From assembly GCA_964447685.1 (NCBI GenBank), contig CAYUTI010000001.1, positions 267,064 through 331,063 of the forward strand: a stretch of 64,000 nucleotides of DNA. The letters run 5' to 3'. Source of the stretch: Candidatus Woesearchaeota archaeon. GTDB lineage: Archaea; Nanobdellota; Nanobdellia; SCGC-AAA011-G17; CAYUTI01. Below, one piece after another: positions 11,430 to 52,152 of this stretch (its first letter is position 1; each line of letters starts with the position of its first letter). The position numbers were made by a program, and so were the translations under genes. The notes beneath the pieces are model-generated. The model was given only the letters and a program-made list of their open reading frames with translations. It did no database searches and was not told where the DNA came from.

Positions 11430-13493
11430 ATGGATATGAAGAGACAAATTTTAGGGATTGTTTTGATATTTTTGTTAGGCTTAAGTTTAGTTAACGCTGG
11501 TGTTGGTGTCCTTGATGATGGTGTTAGAATTTCTGAACCAACTGGTTATCAAGCTGCACCTTATGTTTATGAAGAAGGAGATAGTTTTGATGTTTGTTTT
11601 ACATTGAAAAATGAAAACAATTATGTTGCTTTAATCAACCCAACTTTTTATGTTATGAAATTAAATTATGCAGTTACTGGTTTTCCAGTTTATACTGAAG
11701 AACAATTGTTATGGGTTGTTCAAAATTATAATCCTACTCAAACTTTATATCATACTGAAAGTCGATTTATGGGATTAGGTGTTGATCAAACAAAATTAGT
11801 TTGTTTTAGTTATGAATTAGAAGAAGAAGGATATTACCAATTTGATTTGGGAAGAGATGGTAATGATAGTATGTGGGCTGCTGGTTTTATCAGAGTTGTT
11901 GATAATGATTCTGATGATGATGAAATTCCAGATCCTGAAGATAATTGTCCTTTAGTTTACAATCCTAATCAAACTGATAGTGATAATGATGGATTAGGTA
12001 ATGCATGTGATAACTGTGCATTTGACTATAATCCTTCCCAGGAAGATAGAGATGGTGACGGTATTGGGGATGTTTGTGATCCTAATGGTAGCACTGAATG
12101 TGATGATGGGATTGACAATGATGGAGATAACTTAGTAGATATGGATGATCCTGACTGTTCAAGTCCTGAAGATGATGATGAAAGTGGTAATAGTTTACCA
12201 GAGTGTTCAGATAATCTAGATAATGATGGAGATAATTTAATTGATGAATTAGATCCTGGTTGTTATACTAATGGATTCTATAATCCTCTAGATGATGATG
12301 AGAGTAATGATATCCCTGGAAGTTATGAATGTTCAGATCTAGTTGATAACGATGGAGATAACTTAGTAGATATGGATGATCCTGACTGTTCAAGTCCTGA
12401 AGATGATGATGAAAGTGGTAATAGTTTACCAGAGTGTTCAGATAATCTAGATAATGATGGAGATAATTTAATTGATGAATTAGATCCTGGTTGTTATACT
12501 AATGGATTCTATAATCCTTTAGATGATGATGAGAGTAATACCTCTGGTTACCAGTATGAATGTTCCGATTTAGTTGATAACGATGGAGATAATTTAGTTG
12601 ATTGGTATGACCCTGGTTGTTATACTAATGGAATCTATAACCCTTGGGATGATGATGAAACTAATGTTCCTAATGGAGATTATGAATGTTCAGATCAAGT
12701 TGATAACGATGGGGATGGATTAGCTGATGTTTTAGATCCTGGTTGTTGGGATAATGGTGTTTATAATCCTCTAGATGATGATGAGAGCAATGATATTCCT
12801 GGAACTTATGAATGTTCAGATTTAGAAGATAATGACAATGATGGATTTACTGATATGTTAGATCCTGGTTGTGATACACCTTTAGATGATGACGAGACTA
12901 ATGTTCCTAATGGAAATTATGAATGTTCAGATTTAACAGATAATGATGGAGATGACTTAATTGATTGGTTTGATCCTGGTTGTTATACCAATGGATACTA
13001 TAATCCTTGGGATGATGATGAGAGAAATCAAGGTAGTACTAATCCTGAATGTTCTGATGGAAGAGACAATGATGGAGACGGTTTAATTGATATGAAAGAT
13101 CCTGATTGTTTGAATCCTTGGGATGATAGAGAAGAAGGTAACAAAGGTTCTAATGCTGCAAGCCAACCTTGTGCTAAACACAGTTTAAGCATTACTCAAG
13201 TTGTATTGAATGATGACTGGACTGTTATCCAAGCAGGAGATCTTTTAGAAATCTATTCTAGCATTAAGAATGATGGAAGCTTCACTGAAAAGGGTGTTCA
13301 TATTAAAGCTGAAGTTGTTGAGTTAGGTGTTAGTGAAGAAAGTATTAGATTTACTTTAGGACCTAAAGAATCTGATTTCGCTAGTGTTTATTTAGATATT
13401 CCAGCTGATGCTTATGGTGTTTATACCTTAAGATTAGAAGTTGAGAATGACAATACAAAAGACGTACATTATGTTGATTTCGAGGTCTTTTAG
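11430..13493 (+). CDS. secreted Asp/Cys-rich repeat protein (thrombospondin type-3 / MopE-like motifs)
   Basis: Signal peptide; [27 protein letters not shown] (TSP3-like); nine ~38-aa repeats of ECSDxxDNDGDxLxDxxDPGC. Confidence 0.8.
12120..12581 (+). repeat. 2 x 231-bp near-perfect tandem duplication inside the repeat-protein gene
   Basis: 12120-12308 is nearly identical to 12351-12539 (one mismatch seen by eye); downstream copies become degenerate. Confidence 0.85.
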
Positions 13494-26266: not shown

Positions 26267-27211
26267 TTAGACAGATTTTACGGTTTGATTTCTACCACTC
26301 TGTTTAGCGGTGTATAATGCTTTGTCTGCTCTTGCTACTAAATCTAGTTTATTTTCTTCTTCTTTAAGCTGAGCAACACCTGCACTGATAGTAATTCTAA
26401 TAGGAATACCTTTATATTCAAAATATTCATTTTCTATTGCTTTTCTTATTTCATCAGTTTCTTTTTGAGCAGTTTCTAAATCTTTTCCTGGGAACAGTAA
26501 TGAAAATTCTTCTCCACCATACCTTCCACTTAATTTTTCTCCAGCTTTCTCTCTGATTATTCTTGATACTTCAGTTAGAACATAGTCACCTCCTAGGTGA
26601 CCAATTCTTTCATTATGATCTCTAAAATGATCAATATCAATCATTGCAAAGGAAAATGATTCATTATATCTATTTGCTGTTCTTACTCTATAGTCTATTG
26701 CTCTTTCTAGAGTTCTTCTATTTTGTAAGCTAGTTAAAGCGTCTATATCACTTAGTTCTTCATTTGCTTTTTTGTTTTTGATCTTTTTTTCTGCTAAAGA
26801 AGCAATCTTTTTAATTAAATGGATTTGTGGACCTATGAAACCTTGTTTATTATAAACAAAGAATACCCCATTTTCAGTAGGAATTGCTAGGTAAGGACCA
26901 TTATGAGTTGTTCTTTGACTTTCATAGGTTGTAGTTATTAACTCTTCTACTCCTTCCAAGGTTTCTGGAGTTTCTTTAATTCTTCCTCTTTCAAGTAATT
27001 CATCTCCTTCAATAATTCTAACAGAACCACCTTCTAATTCATCTCCAAGGTTTCTGAAATATTCTTGAATTGCTCTAAGAGTTTGGTTTGCTAATTCTCC
27101 AACATCATTATAATCATCTAACTCTTCTTGAACTGCACTAATAAAAGAGAGCTCACTAGGCGAAAACTGTCCATATTCTCTTATAAGTTTGTCTAGTGCC
27201 ATTTTATTCAC
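26267..27211 (-). CDS. GGDEF-domain diguanylate cyclase with unknown ~150-aa N-terminal domain
   Basis: Full motif set DALTSLQNRR, FSFAMIDIDHFRDHNERIGH, GGDYVL, GRYGGEEFSLLFPG, ISAGVA, ADKALYTAKQSGRNQ; no RxxD I-site. Confidence 0.85.
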   Translation of the reverse strand: MNKMALDKLIREYGQFSPSELSFISAVQEELDDYNDVGELANQTLRAIQEYFRNLGDELEGGSVRIIEGDELLERGRIKETPETLEGVEELITTTYESQRTTHNGPYLAIPTENGVFFVYNKQGFIGPQIHLIKKIASLAEKKIKNKKANEELSDIDALTSLQNRRTLERAIDYRVRTANRYNESFSFAMIDIDHFRDHNERIGHLGGDYVLTEVSRIIREKAGEKLSGRYGGEEFSLLFPGKDLETAQKETDEIRKAIENEYFEYKGIPIRITISAGVAQLKEEENKLDLVARADKALYTAKQSGRNQTVKSV

Positions 27212-30934: not shown

Positions 30935-32386
30935 ATGAAAAAGAGGAAATTTAAACATGTTAAGGAGTATAAGGATTTTATTATTCTTATTTGGGTTATT
31001 TTTGGAGTTGGTTTAGTAATCTTTAATTCTAATCTTTCTTTGGAAGATATAACTGGTTTTGTTGTTAGTGGAGATGATTTTGATATCTTTGTTGAGTGTG
31101 TTATTCCTAATCAAAGTGTTGGACATGGAGATAGTGGTTATATTATTAATTTTAGTTATCTTTGGAATGGATTTGAAAATCTTAGTTTAGATGAAAGTAA
31201 ATTTAGAGGACCTAAAACTGATGTTGAACCTATTACAGTATTTGAACCTGGGAAACATTCTTTTTTAGTTGGCGTTCATGCTAATGGAAATTTAAATTGG
31301 GAAGTTGTTATTGAGGAAATTGAAAAGGGTATAACTGTTGGTAAGGATTATGGAACTGTTTGTAATGTTAGTTTAGATTTAGATGAAGATGGATTTTATG
31401 AAGATGATTGTGATGATACTAATGCTTTGATAAATCCTTATGCTTATGAAATTTGTGATGGTTTAGATAATGATTGTAACTTAGATACTTTAGATGGTTC
31501 TTTTGAGAATTGGTATTTTAACACTACTTCTTGTGGGATTGGAGAGTGTTTTGCTATGGGTATTATGGATTGTATAAATGGTAGTTTAGTGAATACTTGT
31601 ACCGTTCTTGATGAATCTGTTGAAGATTGTGATGGTCTTGATAATGATTGTGATGGTTTGATTGATGAGGATTTAACTAGAGAGTGTAGTAATAATTGTA
31701 GTGTTGGTGTTGAGATTTGTTTTGATGCTGAATGGATTAATTGTAGTGCTGAGGCTTGTGTAGAGGTTCCCTTGAATGAAACGATTCCTGAGAATGAAAC
31801 TATTCCTTTGAATGAGACAATACCTGAAAATGAAACCTTGCCTGAGGAAGAAATTGATTTTGGAATTGTTTTATTAAGTCCTGAAAATGAGTTGAGTACT
31901 TATGATAGAGATTTTGAGTTTGAGTATTTAAGTAATGCTAGCAATTGTAGTTTAATTTTAGATGGGATCGAGGTTAATGGTTTCAATTTTAATTTAGGGA
32001 TTGGTAAACATAATTGGAGTGTTAGTTGTTTAGAAAATTCTAGTGAGGTTTGGAGTTTAGTTATTTTAGAGCAAGTTAATACTGGAAGTTCTGGAAGTGG
32101 TTCTAATGGCAAGGATGATAATATAGAAATTGTTCCGGTTCAAGAGGTTGTAGAAGAACCTGAGGAGATTGTTGTTGAACCTTTTGAAGTTGAGACTGGA
32201 GGAAGTAGTAGAATTGTTAGAAATGAAACTATTATTGAAGATGAACCTTCGATTAATCCAATTACGGGTTTTGCTGCTTTGGATATAATGAGTGATCTAA
32301 ATCCTGGTTGGTGGTTGATTTTACTAATAGTTAGTTCTGGATTGGTTTATTATGTTTATAAGAAGAAGTTCTTGAAGAAAAAATGA
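30935..32386 (+). CDS. surface protein with MopE-like CDGxDNDCDG metal-binding motifs, NET tandem repeats and C-terminal TM
   Basis: CDGLDNDCN.. and CDGLDNDCDGLIDED; NETIPENETIPLNETIPENETLPEE; C-terminal TM + KKKFLKKK. Confidence 0.7.
   Translation: MKKRKFKHVKEYKDFIILIWVIFGVGLVIFNSNLSLEDITGFVVSGDDFDIFVECVIPNQSVGHGDSGYIINFSYLWNGFENLSLDESKFRGPKTDVEPITVFEPGKHSFLVGVHANGNLNWEVVIEEIEKGITVGKDYGTVCNVSLDLDEDGFYEDDCDDTNALINPYAYEICDGLDNDCNLDTLDGSFENWYFNTTSCGIGECFAMGIMDCINGSLVNTCTVLDESVEDCDGLDNDCDGLIDEDLTRECSNNCSVGVEICFDAEWINCSAEACVEVPLNETIPENETIPLNETIPENETLPEEEIDFGIVLLSPENELSTYDRDFEFEYLSNASNCSLILDGIEVNGFNFNLGIGKHNWSVSCLENSSEVWSLVILEQVNTGSSGSGSNGKDDNIEIVPVQEVVEEPEEIVVEPFEVETGGSSRIVRNETIIEDEPSINPITGFAALDIMSDLNPGWWLILLIVSSGLVYYVYKKKFLKKK
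31774..31845 (+). repeat. 4 x 18-bp tandem repeat encoding NETIP(E/L)
   Basis: aatgaaacgattcctgag / aatgaaactattcctttg / aatgagacaatacctgaa / aatgaaaccttgcctgag. Confidence 0.7.
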
Positions 32387-32592: not shown

Positions 32593-32634
32593 GATTTAAA
32601 TAGTTAGATTACACCACAAATGTTAGATTAAAAA

Positions 32635-35600
32635 GTGGTGTATAAACGTTATATTACTGATAAGAATGGAAAAAAGAGAGGACCTTATTATTACAAGAAT
32701 ATTCGGGAGAATGGTAAGGTAAAATCTGTTTATTTAGGTACTAAGAATCCTGAAGATAAAAATGTTTTTAATTATAAACCTATGTTCGTAGTTGCTTTGT
32801 TTTTGATTGGTGTGTTTGGTATTGTTTTTTTGAATTTAGTTTATACTGGTTATTCTGTACATGAGTCTAATTCTTCTAGTACCGATGAGTGGATAATGTT
32901 TGGTAGAACTTTAAATAATACCCGACTTTATCCAGATAATATTAATTTAGCAAATTTTGGACTTTTGTGGACTTCTCCTGCTACTAGTGGTTCAATGGTT
33001 TATACAAGTGCTTCTATTCTTGAAGGAGTTTTATATTATGGAGATACAGGAGGTTATATTCGTGCTATTAATCTGTCTACTGGTGAATCAAGATGGAATT
33101 TTTCTTTAAATTCTACTATTACTTATTCTTCTTCTGCAATTGCGAATAATACTTTATTTATTGGTACAGGAAGTACTAATGAAGAGGGCAGTAAACAACT
33201 TTTTGCTTTAAATATTACGAATGGAACTCGGCTTTGGAATCGATCTCTTGGAAATGCAGTTGGTTCTCCGGTAGTATATAATAATACTGTTTATGTTATG
33301 ACTCAGAATAAGGTTTTTGCATATTCTTTATATGGTGATCACTTGTGGAATCGTAGTGGAAATGGATCAGATATTATTCCATATCCTCCTTCTTTAGCAG
33401 TATATAATAATACTTTGGTAGTTTCTTTAAAAGAAAGCACGAATCATTTTTTACAAGCTTTAAATGCTACTGATGGAACCTTATTCTGGAATTCTCACCT
33501 TCGGGGTAGAACATCAAATCCAGCGATTTATGAAGATGTAGTTTATGTTGGAGGAGGTTTAAATTCTTCTTGGGCAATGGTTACTGCAGTTTGGTTCACT
33601 AACGGAACCCAAAGATGGAATTATACTTTTGATCAGACTTGTTCGATGGTTCGGTCTTCTCCTGCGGTTTCTAATGATAGAGTTTTTGTTGGAGTTACTT
33701 GTCCTCAAGCCTTGGATGATTTTTATGCTTTTAATGCTACAAATGGTTCTGTTATTTGGAGTAAAAACTTGGGTACAAATTTAGTTCCAAGCCCTACTGT
33801 TACAAATAATGGAATTGTTTTTATGGGTTCTGATGACAATAAAGTTTATGCTTTTGATGTTACTAATGGAGATGAACTTTGGATGTATACTACTCCTAAT
33901 CTAATAACTTACTCTTCTCCTACTATTGTTGATGGAAGATTGTATATCGGTTGTGAGAACGGAAATATGTATGCTTTTGCACAAAATGATACTATCGCTC
34001 CTCAAGTTAATCTTCTTACTCCTCTTGATAATCAATCTTATTTTACAAGTGAAGCTACTAGAACACTTACTTTTACTTATAATGTTTCAGATGGAGGTAA
34101 TGATATTGCTAATTGTAGTTTAATTTTGGATGGTGCTGTGTTTAGTACTAATAGTACCATTGTTAAGAGTCAATCTAGTTTGAGTTTTGATGTGGCAATA
34201 CCTTATGGAGATCATACTTGGAATATTAATTGTACAGATTATGGAAATAATGAGGGAACTAATTCTAGTAGAAGTTTGAATTTATTACTTGTTTCTGAAA
34301 ATAACTCTATTAGTGATTGGTTAATGTTTAGAGGAACATTAAATCATACCGGTTATTATCCTGGAACGGTTAATTTGAATAATTTTGGTTTGTTGTGGAA
34401 TTATCCTACTTTTGATGATTTGAGTACTCCTGCATCTTCTCATGCTATTTATTCAAGTCCGGTTGTTTATAATAATACTGTGTTTTTTTCTGCTCAACAT
34501 CAATCCCCACCTATTCATAATCACTATTCTTTAAATGCTACAAATGGAAGCAAGGTTTGGAATTACAGTTATAATATACTTGGTTCTATTGGTGAACCTT
34601 CCAGCCCGGCTATCACTAACCATCTCTTATATGTAGGAAGTAGTATAGGAAATCTTACTTCTATCTGGGTTAATAATGGAACACCAAAATGGAAGGGAAT
34701 AGAGGGAGTTATCCTTTCAAGCCCAGCGATTTATAATAATACTCTTTTTATTGGAGAAGGAACAAATCTTTCTGCATTTAATGCAAGCGACGGTACTTTG
34801 CTCTGGACGCGTTACTCAAATAATTCGAATAATTATGCAACTCCTGCTGTTAGAGATGGTATAGTATATATGGGGGGGTCTAATGGTACTGGAAATCTTG
34901 GTGTATTCTATGCTCTTTGGACTAATAATGGAACTATAAAGTGGAGTAAGAAATTAAATGGAACTTATACATCTAGTCCTACTTTAGTTAATGATCTGCT
35001 TTATATCGGAACTTTGACTAAACAGGTTTATGCCTTAAATACTACTGATGGAGATATTGTTTGGAATTATACTACCGGAGATGTTATTTATTCTTCTCCT
35101 GCTTTTTTTAAAGGTGTGACTTATATTGGAAGTAATGATAATAATCTTTATGCTTTTAATGCTACCAATGGTACTTTAGTATGGAATTATTCTACAGGAG
35201 GAGATGTTTATTCAAGTCCTACAATCACAGAGAATGGTATTTTATTTGTTGGTGGGGCAGATAATAAATTTTATGCTTTTAATGCTACTAATGGAGAAAA
35301 ACTTTGGGAATATACAACAGAAAATCTTATTAGTTATTCTAGTCCTGCTATTGCAAATGGTAGGATTTATATTGGTTGTGTGAATGGAGATATGTATGCT
35401 TTTGCTGCAAGTGCGGATACGGATTATCCAATAGTTACTTTATCAATTCCTACTGCTGGACAGACTTTTTCAGTAGGTTCACAAAATATAAGTATTACTT
35501 TTACCTATAGTGTTTCGGATGTAAGTAATGATATTGCTAATTGTAGTTTGATCATTGATGGCGTTGTTAATTTGACTAATAGCACTATTGTTAAAAGTCA

Positions 35601-36858
35601 AAGCAGTTTATTTTTTAACCAAACTTTTGCTATATCAACAACTCATACTTGGGATGTAAATTGTACAGATTATGGAAATAATGAAGGAAATAGTAGTGGA
35701 CCTAGGAGTTTTAGTATAAATGCTATAACTAGCCCAGGAGGTCCTAGTTCTTCTAGTTCTCCTAGCACTCCCGTTACTCCAGTTACTCCAGTAGTAGTTC
35801 CTGAACCTAAGCCCGAAGTAAAACCTGAATCGGTGATAGAACCAGCACCTCCAGTTACAACTCAAATTTTGAGTAGTGCAGGTAACTCAAGAAGTCAGAT
35901 GAGATCTTGTTTGAAGGAAGCTGATTTTAGTCCTGAAGAAGCGGAGTATATAGTTGATGTGTTAGGTTTAGATTTGTGTGCTTTTAAGAGAGGTAATGTT
36001 GATATTGCTGTTGAGGAGAGATGTGGGGGTATAGAAATTGTTTTAGATTCTAATACAAGAGTATTTAGTTCAATGTTGGATAGTGTCCCTGAATTCTTAG
36101 TGGATTTTAGTGCTAAACAGATTAGTGAAGAATGCCCTTGGTGTAATAATGGTGTTAAGGATTATGATGAAGAAGGAATAGATTGTGGTGAAAGTTGTAA
36201 AGCTTGTGATGTTGTTGAGGAAGTTATTTATGAGTTTGATTATAAAGAAGTGTTGCCTTGGTGGTTGTTGATTCTTGCTTTTGGATTTTTGGTTGTTTTA
36301 TTTTATTTTAGAAATTACTCTAGGATTCATTTTAAATCTTTTACGGTGGTAGGGATTTTAATTGCTTTTGGATTATTTTTAATGAATGGTTCTGGTAAGA
36401 TTACTGGTGCTGCTATAGGTCTTGTTGATACATTAAATAATATCTATATCTTTGTTTTGTTTTGGTTTATTGTTTTTGGATTTTTAGGTTTTTGGATTTA
36501 TAAAAAAATTACTCGTGTTAGGCCTAGTTTGATGAGTGTTGAAAGTTTATTGAAAGATTGTATGGATTTACTGAAAAAAGAGGAATATGGTCATGCTAGA
36601 GAAGTGTTTGATTTAGCAGATAGCAGGTATCATGATTTACGTAAGAGTAACGAAGAAGTTGATAATCTATATAATGAAATTGAATTTTATCTTGAAGTTT
36701 ATGATTTATGTAATCGGATTAAATTGAAGGAAAAAGTTAAAGAAAAAGAATTTGATAAGTTGATTGCTAAGGCTTCTAAAATTAAAGTGAGTTCTAAAGA
36801 TGTTTATGCTGATATGAAATCTAAGTTTGATTCTGCTTTAAGAAGCTTTAAAAGATAA
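32635..36858 (+). CDS. giant (1407 aa) membrane-anchored surface protein: 2 x [PQQ-like beta-propeller + Ig-like module], Pro/Thr linker, Cys knot, 3 C-terminal TMs
   Basis: Repeated PQQ/BamB-like blades (VYVGS.DNKLYAFNATNGxxLWxYTT); duplicated ANCSLIxDG...IVKSQSSL...NCTDYGNNEG modules; dense NxS/T sequons; start is GTG/uncertain. Confidence 0.75.
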   Translation: MVYKRYITDKNGKKRGPYYYKNIRENGKVKSVYLGTKNPEDKNVFNYKPMFVVALFLIGVFGIVFLNLVYTGYSVHESNSSSTDEWIMFGRTLNNTRLYPDNINLANFGLLWTSPATSGSMVYTSASILEGVLYYGDTGGYIRAINLSTGESRWNFSLNSTITYSSSAIANNTLFIGTGSTNEEGSKQLFALNITNGTRLWNRSLGNAVGSPVVYNNTVYVMTQNKVFAYSLYGDHLWNRSGNGSDIIPYPPSLAVYNNTLVVSLKESTNHFLQALNATDGTLFWNSHLRGRTSNPAIYEDVVYVGGGLNSSWAMVTAVWFTNGTQRWNYTFDQTCSMVRSSPAVSNDRVFVGVTCPQALDDFYAFNATNGSVIWSKNLGTNLVPSPTVTNNGIVFMGSDDNKVYAFDVTNGDELWMYTTPNLITYSSPTIVDGRLYIGCENGNMYAFAQNDTIAPQVNLLTPLDNQSYFTSEATRTLTFTYNVSDGGNDIANCSLILDGAVFSTNSTIVKSQSSLSFDVAIPYGDHTWNINCTDYGNNEGTNSSRSLNLLLVSENNSISDWLMFRGTLNHTGYYPGTVNLNNFGLLWNYPTFDDLSTPASSHAIYSSPVVYNNTVFFSAQHQSPPIHNHYSLNATNGSKVWNYSYNILGSIGEPSSPAITNHLLYVGSSIGNLTSIWVNNGTPKWKGIEGVILSSPAIYNNTLFIGEGTNLSAFNASDGTLLWTRYSNNSNNYATPAVRDGIVYMGGSNGTGNLGVFYALWTNNGTIKWSKKLNGTYTSSPTLVNDLLYIGTLTKQVYALNTTDGDIVWNYTTGDVIYSSPAFFKGVTYIGSNDNNLYAFNATNGTLVWNYSTGGDVYSSPTITENGILFVGGADNKFYAFNATNGEKLWEYTTENLISYSSPAIANGRIYIGCVNGDMYAFAASADTDYPIVTLSIPTAGQTFSVGSQNISITFTYSVSDVSNDIANCSLIIDGVVNLTNSTIVKSQSSLFFNQTFAISTTHTWDVNCTDYGNNEGNSSGPRSFSINAITSPGGPSSSSSPSTPVTPVTPVVVPEPKPEVKPESVIEPAPPVTTQILSSAGNSRSQMRSCLKEADFSPEEAEYIVDVLGLDLCAFKRGNVDIAVEERCGGIEIVLDSNTRVFSSMLDSVPEFLVDFSAKQISEECPWCNNGVKDYDEEGIDCGESCKACDVVEEVIYEFDYKEVLPWWLLILAFGFLVVLFYFRNYSRIHFKSFTVVGILIAFGLFLMNGSGKITGAAIGLVDTLNNIYIFVLFWFIVFGFLGFWIYKKITRVRPSLMSVESLLKDCMDLLKKEEYGHAREVFDLADSRYHDLRKSNEEVDNLYNEIEFYLEVYDLCNRIKLKEKVKEKEFDKLIAKASKIKVSSKDVYADMKSKFDSALRSFKR

Positions 36859-37308
36859 AATTGGTTGAATTTTATCTTCTATTACTTCTTTGTTAATTGC
36901 ATTAATTTTTGAATTTAATACATTAAAAGATTTTGTTAGTAAAGTTATATTCCAAGTTGGTTTAGAATTTATTGTTTGTAGGATTATTATTGTTTTTTCT
37001 TCTTGTTCTTCTGGGTGTTTATCTTTGATTAATTCTATTATCTCTTCAGGTGTTGTTTTTATTTCAGTTATATCTAAAGGTTCTAGATCTTTTTGTTCTT
37101 TGCTGAATTGTTTCTCTTCTTTGTAAGCTAGTTTGTTAGCTTTGAAAGAGGTGATTAGTTTTGTAGTTTTTGAGAAGAAATCTAGTTGCCATTCATTGTC
37201 TATTAAAGAACATGAGCATAGGTGGGATTCTTTATTTTCTTTTTTGAAGGTTTTGTAGTCTTCTGATTTATTTAGGTTTTTTAGTTCTCTTTTTAGTTGG
37301 TCTAACAT
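36838..37308 (-). CDS. hypothetical protein
   Basis: 156 aa; coupled to thrS. Confidence 0.4.
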   Translation of the reverse strand: MLDQLKRELKNLNKSEDYKTFKKENKESHLCSCSLIDNEWQLDFFSKTTKLITSFKANKLAYKEEKQFSKEQKDLEPLDITEIKTTPEEIIELIKDKHPEEQEEKTIIILQTINSKPTWNITLLTKSFNVLNSKINAINKEVIEDKIQPILSFKAS

Positions 37309-39057: not shown

Positions 39058-40989
39058 ATGAAAAAGAGGATTTTAGTAGTTTTGATGTTTTTATTAATGG
39101 TAAGTTTAGTTTCAGCTAGTCTTAAGGTAGAAGGCCCTAGCAGAGATACATATAATTATGGCGATGATGTAGCAATAGAAGGTTATGTTTTTAGAGATGA
39201 TGATTTTAATGGTTTCCTTAAATTAAGTTTTTTATGTTCTAATCAAACTTTTCCTTTGGGTGTTGTTAGTCTAAGTTTGGAAGGTGGTGAAAAAAAACAA
39301 TTCCCTGGTGAGATCGCATTGCCTAAACTTTTTATTTCTAGTTCTTTAAGCGGGAGTTGTAATATAAATGTTAAACTTGTTTCTGGTGCAAATGTTGTGG
39401 AAGAAACTAATAGTGGAATGTTCTCGATAAGTAAGAATTTGGAGGGTATTTTTAATCTTGATTCTAGTGTTGTTCAGATTGGAGGTAAAATAGAGTTAGT
39501 AGCTGATATTTCTAAATTAAATGGTATTGGAACTAGCGGTAGTGCAGAAATCTATTTTGAAACTAATGGTACTGAAAAATATTTGGTTGATGTTGTTAGC
39601 TTTGAAGATGGAGATTTAGATTATCAATATATTGTTCCTTCTTATAGTTCTAGTGGGGAGTATACTATTGATCTATTAATAAATGATTATTATGGTAATC
39701 AGCAATATTTTGATGATGTTGCGAATTTTATTTTAATGAGTGAATTAGATCTTGATGTTAATACTAATGTTAAAAGTGTTATGCCTGGAGAAAGTATAGA
39801 GATTTATGGAGAAGTTAAAACTGTATTACAAGAGAAAGTAGATTCAGGTAGTGCTAAAATATCTTTAGATGGAGATAATTTTGTTTGTGAAATTGAAGGT
39901 GGAAGTTTTAGTTATACTTATGAGATTCCTAATAATTTCCCTAGTGGAGAGCATGTTTTTAAAGTAAGTGTTATGGATGAATTAGGTAATAAAGGGAGCG
40001 TAGATGTATCTTTTCAAGTAACCCCTATTGTTACTTCTTTAGGTCTTGAATTAGAGAAGGATTATAATCCCGGTGTTGAGATCAGTTTAATACCTATGAT
40101 TTATGATCAGGCAGGAGAAGTAGTTGAGGGTGAATCAGTTAGTCTTGAGATAATTGATCCTGGTCGAAAAACGGTTTTTAGAGATGTTGTAGATAGTGGA
40201 GATAGTTTAGAAATTGAATTAAGCAGAGATGCAAAACCAGGGGAATATGTAGTTAAGGCTTATGCTTTAGGAGTAAGTAAGGATTTTAAGTTTGGTGTTA
40301 ATGAATTAATGATTATAGGTGTTGAATTAAATAATCAGAGTTTAATTGTTACTAATACTGGAAATGTTAAATATACTAAACCTATTGAGGTTGAATTGAA
40401 TCTTGGAGAGTATACAATTGTTAAAAAGAATAGTTTAGCTCCTGGTGAAGTTTTAGAGATCAGATTGGATGAAGAGGTTCCTAGTGGTATTTATGATGTT
40501 AGAGTTCCTTTAGCTGAGAATGGTGGCGAATTTAGAAGAGTAGTTATTGTTGGTAAAAGTGGGATTAATATCACTTGGATTTATTGGTTATTAGCTATAG
40601 GTGTGATTATTTTATTATATTATTTATTTAAAGGTAAGAAGAGAGAAAGAAAACAAGTTCATTTTAAGAAAAGAAAAGATTTCAAAGAAGGGGAAGAAAT
40701 TAAAAAAGAAAAAGAAAGACGTGAGACTGAAGATGAAAGAGTTAAGAAGTTTAGAAAGAGAATTGCTAATACTTTAAGTGGTAAGAAAAAGAAAAAATTT
40801 AGTTTTGGTGGGAAAAAAGAAGGTGGTTATATTACTATAAAAGTTAAAGATGAAGAAGGTGATTCTATAGGTTCTAATTATAATCATAGTGGTTATAAAG
40901 AAGAGAGAGCTAGTCCTTATCGTTCTACTGAAAATAAAGGAAAAAGTTCTGATGAACCTAGTTCTGGTTTTATGAATATGTTTGGTTAA
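39058..40989 (+). CDS. secreted surface protein with C-terminal TM and Lys/Glu-rich tail
   Basis: Signal peptide, beta-rich Ig/CARDB-like body, TM near aa 510, basic tail. Confidence 0.6.
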   Translation: MKKRILVVLMFLLMVSLVSASLKVEGPSRDTYNYGDDVAIEGYVFRDDDFNGFLKLSFLCSNQTFPLGVVSLSLEGGEKKQFPGEIALPKLFISSSLSGSCNINVKLVSGANVVEETNSGMFSISKNLEGIFNLDSSVVQIGGKIELVADISKLNGIGTSGSAEIYFETNGTEKYLVDVVSFEDGDLDYQYIVPSYSSSGEYTIDLLINDYYGNQQYFDDVANFILMSELDLDVNTNVKSVMPGESIEIYGEVKTVLQEKVDSGSAKISLDGDNFVCEIEGGSFSYTYEIPNNFPSGEHVFKVSVMDELGNKGSVDVSFQVTPIVTSLGLELEKDYNPGVEISLIPMIYDQAGEVVEGESVSLEIIDPGRKTVFRDVVDSGDSLEIELSRDAKPGEYVVKAYALGVSKDFKFGVNELMIIGVELNNQSLIVTNTGNVKYTKPIEVELNLGEYTIVKKNSLAPGEVLEIRLDEEVPSGIYDVRVPLAENGGEFRRVVIVGKSGINITWIYWLLAIGVIILLYYLFKGKKRERKQVHFKKRKDFKEGEEIKKEKERRETEDERVKKFRKRIANTLSGKKKKKFSFGGKKEGGYITIKVKDEEGDSIGSNYNHSGYKEERASPYRSTENKGKSSDEPSSGFMNMFG

Positions 40990-49135: not shown

Positions 49136-49489
49136 ATGCATTCATTACCTCAAGAGATCGAAGTTTGGTATGTAATCCCTGCTATTCGTAGAGAGTTTGT
49201 TAAAGAGATGAAGAGTAAAGGATTGAATCAAAGTGAGATTGCTGTTAAATTAGGTTTGACAAGAGCTGCTGTTTCGCAATATGTTTCTGGTAAGAGAGGT
49301 AGTGAAGTTAAGTTTAGTAAAGATGTTAAAGAAGAGATTTCAAAAGCTGTTGTTGGTTTGATGGAAGGTCGTGAACCAGTAAGTGCTATTCAGAGAGTTT
49401 TAAATTTTATTAAGAAGAAAGGATGTTTATGTGATATTCATAAAAAATTAGATAAAAATGTTTGTAATTGTGGAGGTTGTTGCAAATGA
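49136..49489 (+). CDS. HTH regulator with C-terminal Cys cluster, upstream of iscS
   Basis: HTH LNQSEIAVKLGLTRAAVSQYVSGKRG; C-terminal CLCD..CNCGGCC. Confidence 0.5.
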   Translation: MHSLPQEIEVWYVIPAIRREFVKEMKSKGLNQSEIAVKLGLTRAAVSQYVSGKRGSEVKFSKDVKEEISKAVVGLMEGREPVSAIQRVLNFIKKKGCLCDIHKKLDKNVCNCGGCCK

Positions 49490-50634
49490 AAATGATATAT
49501 TTAGATAATGGGGCTACTACAATGTTAGATCCAAAAGTTGTTAAGACTATGGAACCTTATTTTAATCTTAAGTATGGAAATGCTTCTTCAACTCATGCTT
49601 TAGGTCGTGAAGCTAAGATGGCTTTGAATGATGCTCGACATGTTATTGCTAAATCTATTAAAGCTAAAGATGAAGAGATTATATTTACTTCTGGTGGAAC
49701 TGAATCAAATAACTTGGCTATTAAGGGTTTGGCTTTTAATCGAGGTAATGGTCATATTATAACTACTAAGATTGAACATGATTGTGTTTTGAATTCTTGT
49801 AAGTGGTTAGAGAAGAGAGGATTTTCTGTAACCTATTTGGATGTTGATAAAGAAGGTTTTATTAGTGTTGATTCTTTAAAGAATGCTATTCGTGAAGATA
49901 CTTTTTTGTTTTCTGTGATTCATGGTAATAATGAGATTGGAACTATTCAAAATCTTAAAGAGTTAGCTAAAGTTTGTCATGATCATGGTGTGTTAATTCA
50001 TACTGATGCTTGTCAGAGTTATACTAAAACTGAATTGAATGTTAAGAAGCAAGGTTTGGATTTAGTTACTTTGAATGCTCATAAGATTCATGGGCCTAAA
50101 GGAGTTGGTGCACTTTATGTTAGACATGGTGTGAAGTTAGAACCTTTGGCACATGGTGGTGGACATGAAAGAGGTCTTCGAAATGGTACTGAGAATGTTC
50201 CTGGAATTGTCGGATTTGCAATGGCTGTTAAGTTAGCTATGAAAGGAAAACATGTTAGAAGTATGACTAAATTAAGAGATGAATTGATTTCTGGAATATT
50301 AAAAATTCCTGGAGTTAGATTGAATGGTCCTAGAAAAGAAAGATTATGTAATAATGTTAATGTTAGTTTTAAGAACATTGAGGGTGAGGCTATTGGTGGT
50401 TATTTAGATGTTAATGGTATTTGTAGTTCTACTGGTAGTGCTTGTAGTTCACATTCATTAGAAGCAAGTCATGTTTTGAAAGCTATTGGCCTTTCAGATA
50501 TTGATGCACATGGTTCCTTAAGATTGACTTTGAGTAGATTTACAACTGAAGCTGAGATTAGAAAGTGTTTAGAGGTTTTGCCTGGTATTATTAGTAAGTT
50601 GCGGAAGATGAGTCCATATAAAGGAGGTCTTTAA
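49486..50634 (+). CDS. iscS: cysteine desulfurase IscS/NifS
   Basis: SGGTESNNLAIKG; PLP-Lys HKIHGPKG; active-site SSGSACSS. Confidence 0.9.
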   Translation: MKMIYLDNGATTMLDPKVVKTMEPYFNLKYGNASSTHALGREAKMALNDARHVIAKSIKAKDEEIIFTSGGTESNNLAIKGLAFNRGNGHIITTKIEHDCVLNSCKWLEKRGFSVTYLDVDKEGFISVDSLKNAIREDTFLFSVIHGNNEIGTIQNLKELAKVCHDHGVLIHTDACQSYTKTELNVKKQGLDLVTLNAHKIHGPKGVGALYVRHGVKLEPLAHGGGHERGLRNGTENVPGIVGFAMAVKLAMKGKHVRSMTKLRDELISGILKIPGVRLNGPRKERLCNNVNVSFKNIEGEAIGGYLDVNGICSSTGSACSSHSLEASHVLKAIGLSDIDAHGSLRLTLSRFTTEAEIRKCLEVLPGIISKLRKMSPYKGGL

Positions 50635-52152
50635 ATGTATACTGAAAAAGTTATGAAATATTTTAAGCATCCTAAGAATATGGGTGTTATTAAGAATGCT
50701 GATGCAGTTGGTCAGGTTGGAAATCCTACTTGTTTATTACCTGAAGAAATTATCCATAAAAATCCTGAAATTGTGCATATTAATAAAATTTCTAAAGATG
50801 ATAAAGTTTTAACTCATACTGGAGATTATAAAAAAGTTATTGCTATTTCTTGTAATCCTTATAAAGGAGATATTATTAGATTAAAAAATAAACTTGGAAA
50901 AATTTCCTTTACCCCAGAACATTTGGTTTATGCTATTAAAGTTCCCAAACATGATAAATTTTTAAGATCGAAGAATAAGAAAATGTTAGTGCCTGCTTGG
51001 TATCATGCAGATCAATTGGAGGTAGGAGATATTTCTTTATATCCTATCCATAAAAATGAAAAAGATATTGAATCTTTGAAGATTGATATACCCGAACTTG
51101 AATGGGATTATAGAAGTAAAGAAATCCCTGATGAAATCCCCGTTAATGATGATTTATTGAGATTGTTTGGTTATTTTTTATCTGAAGGAAATGTTCAAGA
51201 CAAACCATGTAAAACATATATCTCTTTTTCATTAAATATTGCGGAAACAGATATCGTTGAAGATATTAGAAAAATATGTCAAAATCTTTTTAATTTGTCA
51301 GTTAAAGTTAAAAATTTTCCTAAAAGGAATACAGTTATTGTTTATTTGTATAATGCAAGAATCGCAAGATTTTTTAAAAAAATTATGAGTAATGGGGCTA
51401 AAAATAAAAAAATTCCTGCTTTTGTAATGTATCTTCCAAAAGAAAAACAAAAATCATTGATTTTTGGACTTTGGAAAGGGGATGGTTATGTTAATCTTGA
51501 GAGGGATGGACCGAGAGCAGGTTATTCTACAATATCTTATCAACTTGCGCAACAATTAAAAATTTTGTTAATAAGACAAAAAATTTTACCTTCTATTTAT
51601 GAAGAGGATGAAAAAAACATTAGAGGTGTTAATCATAAAAAAAATTATAGGCTTCATGTTGGTCAAAGAGAATCTTTGATTAATCTTTGTAAAATTTTGA
51701 ATATTAATTATGAACCTAAAATTTATAAATCAATTAAATCTTGGTTTGATAATAATTTTCTTTATATCCCCATTACGAAAAAAGATTCTTTTTATTATGA
51801 AGGGAATGTACATAATTTAGAGGTTATTGATTCACATTCTTTTGTTTCAGGTGCTTTTTGTTTGCATAATTGTGGTGATGTAATGAAGATTTATTTAAAA
51901 ATTGGTAAGGATTCTAAAGGTAGAGAGGTGATTAAGGATTGTAAATTTGAAACCTTGGGATGTATTGCTGCAATCGCTACAAGTTCTATTACTACTGAAT
52001 TAGCCAAAGGGAAGACTCTTGATGAAGCTATGAAAATTGATAAGAAAAAAGTAGCTGATTCTTTAGGGGGGTTGCCTGCTGCTAAATTTCATTGTTCTAT
52101 TTTAGCTGTTGATGCTTTGAAGAAGGCTATTGAGAATTATCGGAAGAAATAG
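50635..52152 (+). CDS. iscU: FeS scaffold IscU interrupted by a 380-aa intein
   Basis: Exteins MYTEK..VGQVGNPT and CGDVMKIY..LGCIAAIA..KFHCSILAVDAL rejoin as the IscU GNP(T)CGDVM core. Confidence 0.85.
   Translation: MYTEKVMKYFKHPKNMGVIKNADAVGQVGNPTCLLPEEIIHKNPEIVHINKISKDDKVLTHTGDYKKVIAISCNPYKGDIIRLKNKLGKISFTPEHLVYAIKVPKHDKFLRSKNKKMLVPAWYHADQLEVGDISLYPIHKNEKDIESLKIDIPELEWDYRSKEIPDEIPVNDDLLRLFGYFLSEGNVQDKPCKTYISFSLNIAETDIVEDIRKICQNLFNLSVKVKNFPKRNTVIVYLYNARIARFFKKIMSNGAKNKKIPAFVMYLPKEKQKSLIFGLWKGDGYVNLERDGPRAGYSTISYQLAQQLKILLIRQKILPSIYEEDEKNIRGVNHKKNYRLHVGQRESLINLCKILNINYEPKIYKSIKSWFDNNFLYIPITKKDSFYYEGNVHNLEVIDSHSFVSGAFCLHNCGDVMKIYLKIGKDSKGREVIKDCKFETLGCIAAIATSSITTELAKGKTLDEAMKIDKKKVADSLGGLPAAKFHCSILAVDALKKAIENYRKK
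50731..51870 (+). mobile_element. LAGLIDADG homing-endonuclease intein in iscU
   Basis: Starts with Cys (CLLPEE..), ends ..CLHN followed by extein Cys; two LAGLIDADG blocks (LLRLFGYFLSEGN, LIFGLWKGDGYV). Confidence 0.8.

What the first reader, a model, noticed from the sequence alone, without database searches (positions are those of the whole stretch)
32635..36858. 1407-aa double-module PQQ beta-propeller surface protein with unusual topology
Architecture: basic cytoplasmic N-tail, TM, [PQQ/BamB-like beta-propeller + Ig-like module] x 2, Pro/Thr linker, Cys-knot (ECPWCNNG..CGESCKAC), three TMs, coiled-coil cytoplasmic tail. The two Ig-like modules (about 33967-34275 and 35392-35710) are clearly duplicated (ANCSLIxDG..IVKSQSSL..NCTDYGNNEG). 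N-glycosylation sequons are extremely dense. Giant surface proteins are proposed host-attachment factors in episymbiotic DPANN. The annotated start is GTG, so the true N-terminus is uncertain.
Basis: partly seen in the sequence, partly recalled or inferred. Interest (0 to 1): 0.55.

Follow-up and report, generated by a model that had tools for sequence, protein, structure and literature searches.

The report
Doubly anchored DPANN propeller surface protein
This gene encodes a real, heavily sugar-coated cell-surface protein of a tiny DPANN-type archaeon, made of two copies of a propeller-plus-Ig binding unit and held in the membrane at both ends by two recurrent but undescribed anchor modules; the protein class is ordinary, the anchors are the new part.

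Summary
ORF 32635-36858 (+) encodes 1407 aa. It contains two PQQ/BamB-type beta-propellers (Pfam E 1e-70), each followed by a Cys-pair Ig-like domain. The whole unit is tandemly duplicated (41% identity, E 2e-93). The ectodomain carries 54 N-glycosylation sequons against about 24 expected.

The GTG start is correct. The first 36 residues are a conserved basic motif, M-VYKKYIxxxGKxxGPYYYKxIRxxNGKVKSxYLG. It sits at the very start of ORFs in 15 metagenomic loci, is followed there by a single TM and varied exported domains, and often uses TTG or GTG starts.

The C-terminus is also a recurrent cassette: a small beta domain, a CPWC...DCGxSCxxC module, one or three TMs, and a helical tail. Its relatives are in Woesearchaeota, Pacearchaeota and Nanoarchaeia genomes.

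"Cys-knot" and "coiled coil" are unverified labels. The protein is neither BamB nor a PQQ dehydrogenase.

Best reading: a non-catalytic, N-glycosylated adhesin or envelope protein with both ends in the cytoplasm. The protein is a new variant of a known kind. The two anchor modules have no Pfam model above cut-off and no solved structure, and they are the interesting part. The host-attachment role is plausible but untested.

The parts
32595..32602 (+). TATA-box-like TTTAAATA, about 40 nt upstream of the GTG start
   Evidence: Sequence read. The same box and spacing (-39) are conserved in the syntenic relative L002. TTTA(A/T)ATA lies 29-32 nt upstream of many first genes in the window. Promoter function is inferred.
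32635..36858 (+). Complete CDS, 1407 aa, GTG start, TAA stop
   Evidence: An identical protein is encoded in an independent Logan assembly.
32635..32742 (+). N-terminal conserved basic module (aa 1-36, MVYKRYITDKNGKKRGPYYYKNIRENGKVKSVYLG), cytoplasmic
   Evidence: 76% identical to P0270. In the syntenic L002, 7 codons differ synonymously and the replacements are conservative. The same motif sits at residues 1-36 of ORFs in 15 metagenome loci. Relatives show only weak similarity to DUF6788 and DUF1678.
32785..32841 (+). TM1 (aa 51-69), a signal anchor or the h-region of a very long signal peptide
   Evidence: Kyte-Doolittle (KD) hydropathy peak of 2.84. 13 K+R lie before it and none in the 15 aa after it. 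Homologous N-modules are followed by one TM at aa 47-90.
32887..33975 (+). Beta-propeller 1 (about aa 85-447), PQQ_2 / Beta-prop_ACSF4 type, probably 8 blades
   Evidence: Seven xNxxxGxxxW blade motifs plus an N-terminal closing strand. PDB sequence matches to Cake8-10, 3hxj and BamB.
33985..34296 (+). Ig-like module 1 (aa 451-554) with Cys pair C494/C533
34312..35409 (+). Beta-propeller 2 (about aa 560-925)
35413..35730 (+). Ig-like module 2 (aa 927-1032) with Cys pair C970/C1010
   Evidence: 53% identical to module 1.
35731..35859 (+). Pro/Ser/Thr/Val-rich linker (aa 1033-1075)
   Evidence: Read directly from the sequence.
35911..36129 (+). Juxtamembrane domain (aa 1093-1165): one helix plus a four-strand beta meander, with near-invariant Cys1130 (..RCGGIEI..)
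   Evidence: Conserved in P0131, P0132, P0134, P0138, P0188 and others. AF2 secondary structure at pLDDT about 55-65.
36130..36213 (+). Cys-rich module ECPWCNNGVKDYDEEGIDCGESCKAC (aa 1166-1193)
   Evidence: Invariant C, W, C, Y, D, E, D, C, G, S, C, C columns in alignment A1. 98 of the top 150 hits carry the motif. It occurs as 22-27-aa tandem repeats in Bacteroidota proteins. No Pfam hit and no PDB sequence match.
36250..36504 (+). Three C-terminal TM helices (aa 1206-1224, 1238-1255, 1270-1290)
   Evidence: The same three-TM arrangement follows the Cys module in 11 other representative proteins.
36505..36855 (+). Cytoplasmic all-helical tail (aa 1291-1407) with a conserved two-helix motif (..LLKDCMDLLKKEEYGHAREVFDLADSRYHDL..)
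   Evidence: AF2 helices at pLDDT 70-85. The motif is aligned across 13 proteins. No significant family or PDB match.

Best explanation
The gene encodes a non-catalytic, heavily N-glycosylated cell-surface binding protein, either an adhesin or an envelope-associated protein. The host is a DPANN-type archaeon, probably of the Woesearchaeota/Pacearchaeota lineage.

Proposed mechanism, step by step:
1. Translation starts at GTG 32635 on a near-leaderless transcript.
2. The conserved basic 36-aa N-module stays in the cytoplasm.
3. TM1 inserts as a signal anchor, and about 1130 residues are exported.
4. The exported part consists of two tandem [eight-bladed PQQ-like propeller + Cys-pair Ig-like domain] units on a Pro/Thr stalk. 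The propeller faces act as ligand-binding platforms. The conserved NxS/T sites in every blade are glycosylated.
5. The chain returns to the membrane through a lineage-typical C-terminal cassette: beta domain, CPWC Cys module, three TMs and a helical cytoplasmic tail.
6. Both termini therefore lie in the cytoplasm and the ectodomain forms a large tethered loop.

Shown here: the domain identities, the duplication, the sequon excess, the start codon, the recurrence of both end modules, and charge and hydropathy consistent with this topology.

Inferred: glycosylation itself, non-cleavage of TM1, the ligand, and any role in host attachment.
For: - The propellers score far above the Pfam cut-offs. 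The nearest solved natural relative is an archaeal PQQ-repeat propeller, 3hxj, followed by BamB. Dehydrogenases are remote, at 1e-8 to 1e-10.
- NCBIfam dehydrogenase and BamB models score far below their cut-offs.
- The propeller-plus-Ig unit is duplicated.
- The Ig fold is supported by profile matches.
- Sequons are about 7 SD above shuffles and sit in the conserved blade motif 'ALNATNGxxxWNYT', which is shared by archaeal homologues.
- The N-module is conserved at the ORF start in 15 loci. It sits in front of one TM and varied exported domains: LamG, subtilase, lipocalin-like and MopE.
- Complete relatives L012 and L013 have no other TM, so their N-terminal TM is the only possible anchor.
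- The C-terminal cassette recurs in DPANN MAGs.
- The positive-inside tally fits N-in/C-in, and the only sequon in the TM region that could be used (N1251) lies on the predicted outer side.
- The literature describes DPANN surface proteins with 13-52 N-glycosylation sites, Ig folds and C-terminal TMs, PQQ-like propellers in giant nanohaloarchaeal ectoproteins, and propeller surface proteins proposed for cell-cell contact in ARMAN.
Against: - No ligand, partner or expression data exist.
- No full-length orthologue was found; the best other hits are 24-39% identical and cover the propellers only. Conservation of the whole architecture is therefore unknown.
- No signal-peptidase or topology predictor was available, so TM1 could be cleaved after ..TGYS.
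- The AF2 model of the C-terminal cassette is of low to moderate confidence (mean pLDDT 63; the Cys module is about 40).
- The combination of the N-module with the C-cassette was seen only in this protein.
Confidence: 0.55

Rival explanations
1. The domains are the same, but the protein is singly anchored. The N-module plus TM1 is an unusually long, conserved, cleavable signal peptide, comparable to the extended signal peptides of very large bacterial exoproteins. The mature protein would then be held only by the C-terminal cassette.
For: - Most proteins carrying the C-terminal cassette start with ordinary short signal peptides.
- The residues after TM1 (..TGYS/VHE) have small side chains at -3 and -1.
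- The N-module precedes many unrelated exported domains, as a targeting signal would.
- Nanobdella authors also suspect that the N-terminal TMs of surface proteins are cleaved.
Against: - A folded-looking, strongly conserved 36-aa module plus a 10-50-aa spacer is far longer than any known archaeal signal-peptide n-region.
- Complete relatives (L012, L013) have no other anchor.
- Stand-alone small versions of the module exist (P0270; L006 772-987), which argues for a function of its own.
Confidence: 0.3
2. It is mainly a structural envelope or S-layer-associated scaffold protein of the archaeon's own surface, not a host-binding adhesin.
For: - Archaeal S-layer and sheath proteins are N-glycosylated, beta-rich and often contain propeller, PKD or Ig domains.
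- The double anchor and the Pro/Thr stalk would suit a spacer or pillar.
- Several neighbouring genes also encode anchored Ig-domain proteins.
Against: - There is no full-length orthologue. Major S-layer proteins are usually conserved within a lineage and highly expressed, and expression could not be checked here.
- The three-TM cassette with a long cytoplasmic tail is more elaborate than a simple pillar anchor.
Confidence: 0.25
3. It is an outside-in receptor or tether. Ligand binding by the propellers is transmitted through the three-TM bundle to the conserved helical tail and/or the basic N-module, which recruit cytoplasmic partners.
For: - Conserved cytoplasmic modules lie at both ends.
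- In L006 a stand-alone copy of the N-module is encoded immediately upstream of, and translationally coupled to, a giant surface-protein gene. This is a fusion-versus-separate pattern that hints at a functional partnership.
Against: - No recognisable signalling domain is present. The tail matches nothing significantly.
- The L006 similarity is weak: E 0.004 in a very small database.
Confidence: 0.1
4. It is a redox-active surface quinoprotein, either a PQQ-dependent dehydrogenase or an electron conduit like the proposed SqpA of Methanothrix.
For: - Pfam PQQ-family names match.
- Aromatic content is high: F+W+Y is 12.7%, an argument used for SqpA.
Against: - The PQQ-dehydrogenase subfamily models score 102 and 52 bits against cut-offs of 480 and 833.
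- The best structural-sequence relatives are non-enzymatic propellers.
- The SqpA role is itself described as speculative by its authors.
- No pqq genes were seen among the window ORFs scanned.
Confidence: 0.04

Closest known systems
Archaeal 'PQQ-binding-like / BamB-annotated' beta-propeller cell-surface proteins (Bathyarchaeia, Methanomicrobia, Altiarchaeales; solved example PDB 3hxj; Methanothrix SqpA)
   Same: Same propeller family. Same blade motif with embedded sequons (..YALNATNGxxxWNYT..). Propellers often occur in multiple copies together with Ig, PKD or CARDB-type domains and a membrane anchor.
   Different: Identity is only 24-39% and is restricted to the propellers. None of the retrieved proteins has the N-module or the CPWC/three-TM cassette together with propellers.
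[quoted passage not shown]
   Same: Same lifestyle context, dense sequons, Ig-like domains, propellers, membrane anchoring and a proposed role in cell-cell contact.
   Different: Those descriptions mention a plain signal peptide and a single C-terminal TM. Here there is a conserved cytoplasmic N-module plus a three-TM cassette with a long tail. The nanohaloarchaeal proteins are 6-7 times longer.
BamB (YfgL) of the bacterial BAM complex
   Same: Eight-bladed PQQ_2-type propeller fold. BamB models give the strongest NCBIfam hits.
   Different: Scores are below the equivalog cut-offs (223 against 285; 180 against 423). The host is an archaeon with no outer membrane. The protein is 1407 aa, duplicated and glycosylation-rich, whereas BamB is a lipoprotein of about 390 aa.
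Bacterial Ig-like domains Big_7 / Big_13 (for example SiiE BIg domains in 2yn3, and 9kvu)
   Same: Profile-level sequence similarity and the D-x-x-x-P...P start, and the ..G-x-Y-x-W-x-V-x-C-x-D-x-x-x-N.. end, typical of these domains.
   Different: There is an added conserved Cys pair. The target's two copies fall just under the Pfam cut-off on their own.
Extended signal peptide region (ESPR) of large autotransporters and YSIRK-type signal peptides of Gram-positive surface proteins (comparison from my own knowledge, as an analogy only)
   Same: A conserved sequence block placed in front of the hydrophobic export segment, specifically on large surface proteins.
   Different: There is no sequence relationship: no Pfam hit to either at E<=10. 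The host domain of life is different. The module here is longer, is separated from the TM by a spacer, and also exists as a stand-alone small protein.

Membership tests
PQQ-like beta-propeller repeat superfamily (Pfam PQQ_2 PF13360, Beta-prop_ACSF4 PF13570) | Profile match above the curated gathering score | tested here: met
   241.3 bits against 133, and 235.6 bits against 27.6, with multiple stretches in both halves.
PQQ-like beta-propeller repeat superfamily (Pfam PQQ_2 PF13360, Beta-prop_ACSF4 PF13570) | Eight four-stranded blades closing a ring | tested here: inconclusive
   Each propeller has seven GxxxW blade motifs plus an N-terminal FGLLW strand within about 365 aa, and nine DNA-level blade repeats were found. 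No confident 3D model of the propellers was made.
BamB (TIGR03300 / NF008351 equivalogs) | Score at or above the equivalog cut-off | tested here: not met
   223.1 against 285.2, and 179.7 against 423.
BamB (TIGR03300 / NF008351 equivalogs) | Lipoprotein partner of BamA in a diderm bacterium | tested here: not met
   The context is archaeal: ThrRS with an archaea-specific editing domain is next door. There is no lipobox; the N-terminus is a basic module plus a TM.
PQQ-dependent dehydrogenases (TIGR03075, TIGR03074) | Subfamily model score at or above the cut-off | tested here: not met
   102.4 against 480, and 52.5 against 832.7.
PQQ-dependent dehydrogenases (TIGR03075, TIGR03074) | PQQ- and Ca-binding and catalytic residues | not tested
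   No residue-level alignment to a dehydrogenase was made. PDB dehydrogenases match only one or two blades, at 1e-8 to 1e-10.
Bacterial Ig-like domain Big_7 / Big_13 | Profile match | tested here: inconclusive
   The target's own modules score 21.6 and 20.1 bits against a cut-off of 24.1. The family profile matches solved BIg domains at 8e-8 and 1.2e-7. 11 of 25 members match Big_7 and 8 of 25 match Big_13.
DUF6788 (PF20586) | Profile match at or above the gathering score (27.2 bits) | tested here: not met
   The target's N-tail gives no hit at E<=10. Two relatives score 13.7 and 15.1 bits over about 28 residues. P0270 has only a precomputed 'weak' hit.
N-terminal 'VYKKYI..GPYYY..R..GKVKS.YLG' leader module of exported DPANN-type proteins (defined here) | Motif at residues 1-36 of the ORF, followed by a hydrophilic spacer, one TM and a long exported region | tested here: met
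   The target and 12 of 15 metagenome loci show this layout. Start codons are TTG, GTG or ATG.
C-terminal CPWC anchoring cassette (defined here) | Beta juxtamembrane domain with a conserved Cys, C-P-W-C-x13-D-C-G-x-S-C-x2-C, then one or three TMs and a helical tail with the conserved ..A..xY..I...Y..L.. motif | tested here: met
   194 hits at E<1e-3. Of the 98 hits carrying the strict motif, 54 have the motif plus one TM and 11 have the motif plus three TMs and a tail. The columns listed are invariant.
Cystine knot | Six Cys forming three disulfides with a threaded topology | not testable with these tools
   The core unit has 4 Cys, and the DPANN form has 5 plus one conserved upstream Cys. No solved homologue was found. 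AF2 confidence is about 40 in this region.
Coiled coil | Long uninterrupted heptad-repeat helices that pair | tested here: inconclusive
   AF2 gives four helices separated by breaks, at pLDDT 70-85. No heptad analysis was run. The weak, non-significant fold and profile matches are to TPR and MIT-type helical hairpins.
ESPR / YSIRK signal-peptide motifs | Match to the Pfam models for these motifs | tested here: not met
   No hit at E<=10 for the N-terminal 82 aa or for the relatives.

The most novel reading that the evidence does not exclude
The conserved 36-aa basic N-module is a previously undescribed, lineage-specific export or sorting handle for large DPANN exoproteins. It would be an archaeal counterpart in role, not in sequence, of ESPR or YSIRK leaders. 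It can also act in trans as a small stand-alone protein. In this protein it works together with the CPWC/three-TM/helical-tail cassette to form a two-ended transmembrane tether. That tether would couple a glycosylated propeller ectodomain to cytoplasmic partners at the symbiont-host contact.
Probability: 0.15. Interest if true: 0.7.

Novelty: new variant of a known kind. Interest (0 to 1): 0.4.

Why it matters
How DPANN archaea attach to and exchange material with their hosts is an open question, and their surface proteins are the prime suspects. This protein itself belongs to a common class: glycosylated propeller/Ig ectoproteins.

The analysis nevertheless isolates two short, recurrent and uncurated modules that define how such proteins are exported and held in the membrane:
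- an N-terminal basic leader found in front of many different exported domains;
- a C-terminal Cys-rich/three-TM/helical-tail cassette.

Both give simple sequence handles for cataloguing the DPANN surface proteome. Both are also concrete targets for testing export, sorting and possible outside-in coupling. In addition, the leader explains why many of these genes carry non-ATG starts that annotation pipelines may truncate.

Tried and rejected
- Full-length homologue search. It returned only the protein itself plus propeller-only relatives, and no orthologue.
- Profile search with the C-terminal alignment in the word-indexed database. It gave 4 hits and was uninformative.
- Naming the organism from cluster members. 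No names were returned. The window's genome was not among the GTDB representatives scanned.
- AF2 of the C-terminal region from a single sequence (pLDDT 53), and from a 10-sequence alignment (pLDDT 63, with the Cys module unresolved). A Foldseek search of that model gave nothing below E 0.33. The scattered MIT, TPR and ESCRT-III-like helical matches were treated as noise.
- The idea that the tail is a MIT or TPR domain. It was tested with a 13-sequence profile against PDB and Pfam; the best E was 0.011, so the idea was rejected as unsupported.
- A combined alignment for one model of module 2 plus the C-terminus. It misaligned the C-terminal fragments and was abandoned.
- A PDB sequence search with the Cys-module profile. 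No real match.
- Recent duplication or gene conversion between the two modules. Same-codon use at identical residues is 0.39-0.77, against 0.58 expected from codon usage, which is not clearly elevated. The duplication is probably old, and the better-conserved last blades and Ig domain reflect constraint.
- Sigma-70 promoter and terminator scan. Counts were at or below shuffles and the scan is irrelevant for an archaeon.
- Paralogues of the target in the window. None was found by BLASTP. Only the neighbour at 30935-32386 shares one Ig module.

Full report
**1. Observation**

The window holds an uninterrupted ORF at 32635-36858 on the + strand. It encodes 1407 aa and starts with GTG-GTG directly after an in-frame TAA. 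An independent Logan assembly of run SRR14492172 encodes exactly the same protein, so the reading frame, including the N-terminal part, is not an artefact of one assembly.

The surroundings are archaeal and AT-rich:
- GC is about 30% across the window.
- The convergent downstream neighbour is a threonyl-tRNA synthetase with the archaea-specific editing domain.
- RtcB, RNA cyclase and HisRS lie elsewhere in the window.

**2. Ectodomain**

*Propellers.* Pfam gives very strong propeller matches: Beta-prop_ACSF4 at 2.3e-71 and PQQ_2 at 8e-70, in several stretches over both halves. NCBIfam's BamB equivalogs and PQQ-dehydrogenase subfamilies also match, but all far below their curated cut-offs. Against PDB sequences the best natural match is the archaeal PQQ-repeat propeller 3hxj, together with the designer 'Cake' propellers. 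BamB follows. True quinoprotein dehydrogenases match only one or two blades. The propellers therefore belong to the PQQ_2/BamB-type fold family, but the protein is neither BamB nor a dehydrogenase.

*Duplication.* Residues 92-550 align with 568-1028 at 41% identity (E 2e-93). The whole propeller-plus-Ig unit is therefore duplicated. The copies are 1425-1431 nt apart. Their last two blades and Ig part are the most similar, at 75-90% DNA identity in short stretches. Same-codon use at identical residues is not clearly above what codon bias gives, so this looks like constraint rather than recent conversion. Each propeller shows seven GxxxW blade motifs plus an N-terminal closing strand. That fits eight blades, although no propeller model was made.

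On their own they fall just under the Big_7 threshold. An iterative local HMM search found the same module 45 times in 23 related proteins. A 25-member profile of these matches solved bacterial Ig domains at about 1e-7. 11 of 25 members match Big_7 and 8 of 25 match Big_13. The Ig call stands, with an added conserved Cys pair.

*Sequons.* There are 56 sequons, of which 54 lie in the predicted exported part, against 24.0 +/- 4.2 in shuffles. Many sit in the conserved blade motif (..ALNATNGxxxWNYT..) that archaeal homologues share. The excess is therefore a family trait.

**3. Start codon and N-terminus**

The word-indexed search with aa 1-50 found one relative, P0270, at 76% identity. Its contig (L002) is syntenic with the window. 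It has the same end of the upstream DUF167 gene, the same TTTAAATA box at the same distance, and the same AAAAAGTGGTGTATAAA start region. In codons 1-45 there are 7 synonymous differences, including CGT/AGA, CGG/AGA and TCT/AGT. Most of the 11 replacements are conservative. The stretch is therefore under protein-level selection.

A metagenome scan with an alignment of three N-tails returned 15 loci. In 12 of them the motif (M)-V-Y-K-K-Y-I-x3-G-K-x2-G-P-Y-Y-Y-K-x-I-R-x2-N-G-K-V-K-S-x-Y-L-G begins within one to three residues of the ORF start. It is followed by a hydrophilic spacer, one TM at residues 47-90 and a long exported region. The start codons are TTG, GTG or ATG.

The exported domains differ between loci: LamG, subtilase, lipocalin-like/CrtC, the MopE motif, or nothing recognisable. 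Two complete members have no other TM.

The module is thus a general N-terminal leader of exported proteins in these organisms, and the GTG at 32635 is the real start. It has no Pfam family at threshold. Relatives give only weak partial hits to DUF6788 and DUF1678.

Stand-alone small versions also exist: P0270 at 57 aa, and L006 772-987 at 71 aa. In L006, a Nanoarchaeia MAG, the small gene lies between a cassette-bearing membrane protein and a giant surface-protein gene whose Shine-Dalgarno site (AAGGAGG) and TTG start overlap its end. This fused-versus-separate pattern hints at a functional link, but it rests on a weak match.

**4. C-terminus**

An exhaustive phmmer search with aa 1075-1407 gave 194 hits.
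- *Cys module.* The Cys-rich stretch ECPWCNNGVKDYDEEGIDCGESCKAC is a widespread small module. In Bacteroidota T9SS proteins its 4-Cys core repeats up to 32 times with a 22-27-aa period.
- *DPANN form.* In DPANN-type proteins a 5-Cys 'CPWC' form sits once, 10-40 residues before the membrane. It is preceded by a small domain with a near-invariant Cys.
- *TM arrangements.* Among 98 hits with the strict motif, 54 continue with one TM. 11 continue, like the target, with three TMs and a 90-285-aa tail.
- *Tail.* The tail carries a conserved two-helix motif.
- *Taxonomy.* In GTDB representative genomes the relatives are Woesearchaeota (4), Pacearchaeota (2), Nanoarchaeia (1) and unclassified archaea (2). 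They mostly have ordinary signal peptides at the N-terminus.
- *Structure.* No Pfam model and no PDB sequence matches the Cys module, the juxtamembrane domain or the tail. AF2 with ten sequences gives a helix plus a four-strand meander, an unresolved Cys module, three TM helices and four tail helices (mean pLDDT 63). Foldseek finds nothing significant.

'Cys-knot' and 'coiled coil' are therefore unverified labels. A metal-binding knuckle (CPxC ... CxxC) is as plausible as disulfides.

**5. Topology**

Hydropathy gives four segments. Charges are distributed as follows:
- 13 K+R before TM1;
- none just after TM1;
- an acidic stretch before TM2;
- 3 K+R in the TM2-TM3 loop;
- none in the TM3-TM4 loop;
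- 4 K+R just after TM4.

This fits an N-in/C-in topology with the 1130-residue ectodomain as a loop between TM1 and TM2. Whether TM1 is cleaved could not be tested.

**6. Interpretation**

The protein is a modular surface glycoprotein assembled from parts that each recur in DPANN-type archaea. The propeller-Ig ectodomain belongs to a very common archaeal class. The literature already describes DPANN surface proteins with dense N-glycosylation sites, Ig folds, propellers and membrane anchors, and proposes roles in host contact.

The most likely function is non-catalytic binding at the cell surface. A structural envelope role and a receptor-like role are alternatives. A quinoprotein redox role, as speculated for Methanothrix SqpA, is unlikely given the model scores.

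In my sample this was the only protein that combines the N-terminal leader with the C-terminal cassette. Those two uncurated modules are the more novel result.

**7. Verdict**

The protein is a new variant of a known kind and of moderate interest.

Noticed in passing
window 50635-52152 (+): A 505-aa NifU_N/IscU-type protein whose NifU domain is split by a LAGLIDADG_3 homing-endonuclease domain (aa 272-353), so it appears to be an intein-containing IscU. It lies next to a class-V aminotransferase (IscS-like) at 49468-50634.
   Followed up: no
window 26267-27211 (-): A 314-aa protein with a strong GGDEF diguanylate-cyclase domain (2.1e-34) in what appears to be a DPANN-type archaeal genome. Cyclic-di-GMP signalling is unusual in archaea.
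   Followed up: no
window 11430-13493 (+): A 687-aa secreted protein built from about nine tandem Cys/Asp-rich repeats (ECSDxxDNDGDxLxDxxDPxC...DDDE). It has no Pfam match at 1e-5.
   Followed up: no
window 30935-32386 (+) and 39058-40989 (+): Both large neighbours are also anchored surface proteins. The 483-aa one has an N-terminal TM, a MopE metal-binding motif, 18 sequons, one copy of the same Cys-pair Ig module (NASNCSLILDG...HNWSVSC) and a C-terminal TM. The 643-aa one has a signal peptide, MG2/Big_13 Ig-like domains, a C-terminal TM and a Lys-rich tail. Together with the target they form a small cluster of surface-protein genes.
   Followed up: partly
L006 772-987 and 989-6163 (Nanoarchaeia MAG JAWABC010000039): A stand-alone 71-aa copy of the N-terminal module is encoded directly after a CPWC-cassette membrane protein. 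It lies directly before, and is translationally coupled to, a surface-protein gene of at least 1725 aa with the same Ig module and beta-helix repeats.
   Followed up: partly
P0121, P0122, P0126 (hits): The 4-Cys core of the Cys module (C-x-[DN]-G-[IV]-[QK]-[ND]-x2-E-x-G-[IV]-D-C-G-G-x-C-x2-C) forms perfect 22-27-aa tandem arrays, up to 32 copies, in proteins with T9SS sorting domains. No Pfam model matched these arrays.
   Followed up: partly
window-wide; for example upstream of 15515, 39058, 49136 and 52216: Many first genes have TTTA(A/T)ATA 29-32 nt before the start codon and no Shine-Dalgarno motif, which suggests mostly leaderless transcripts. The target's box lies 9 nt further upstream, and that spacing is conserved in L002.
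   Followed up: partly
window 36838-37308 (-): A 156-aa ORF with no family match converges on the target and overlaps its last 21 nt.
   Followed up: no
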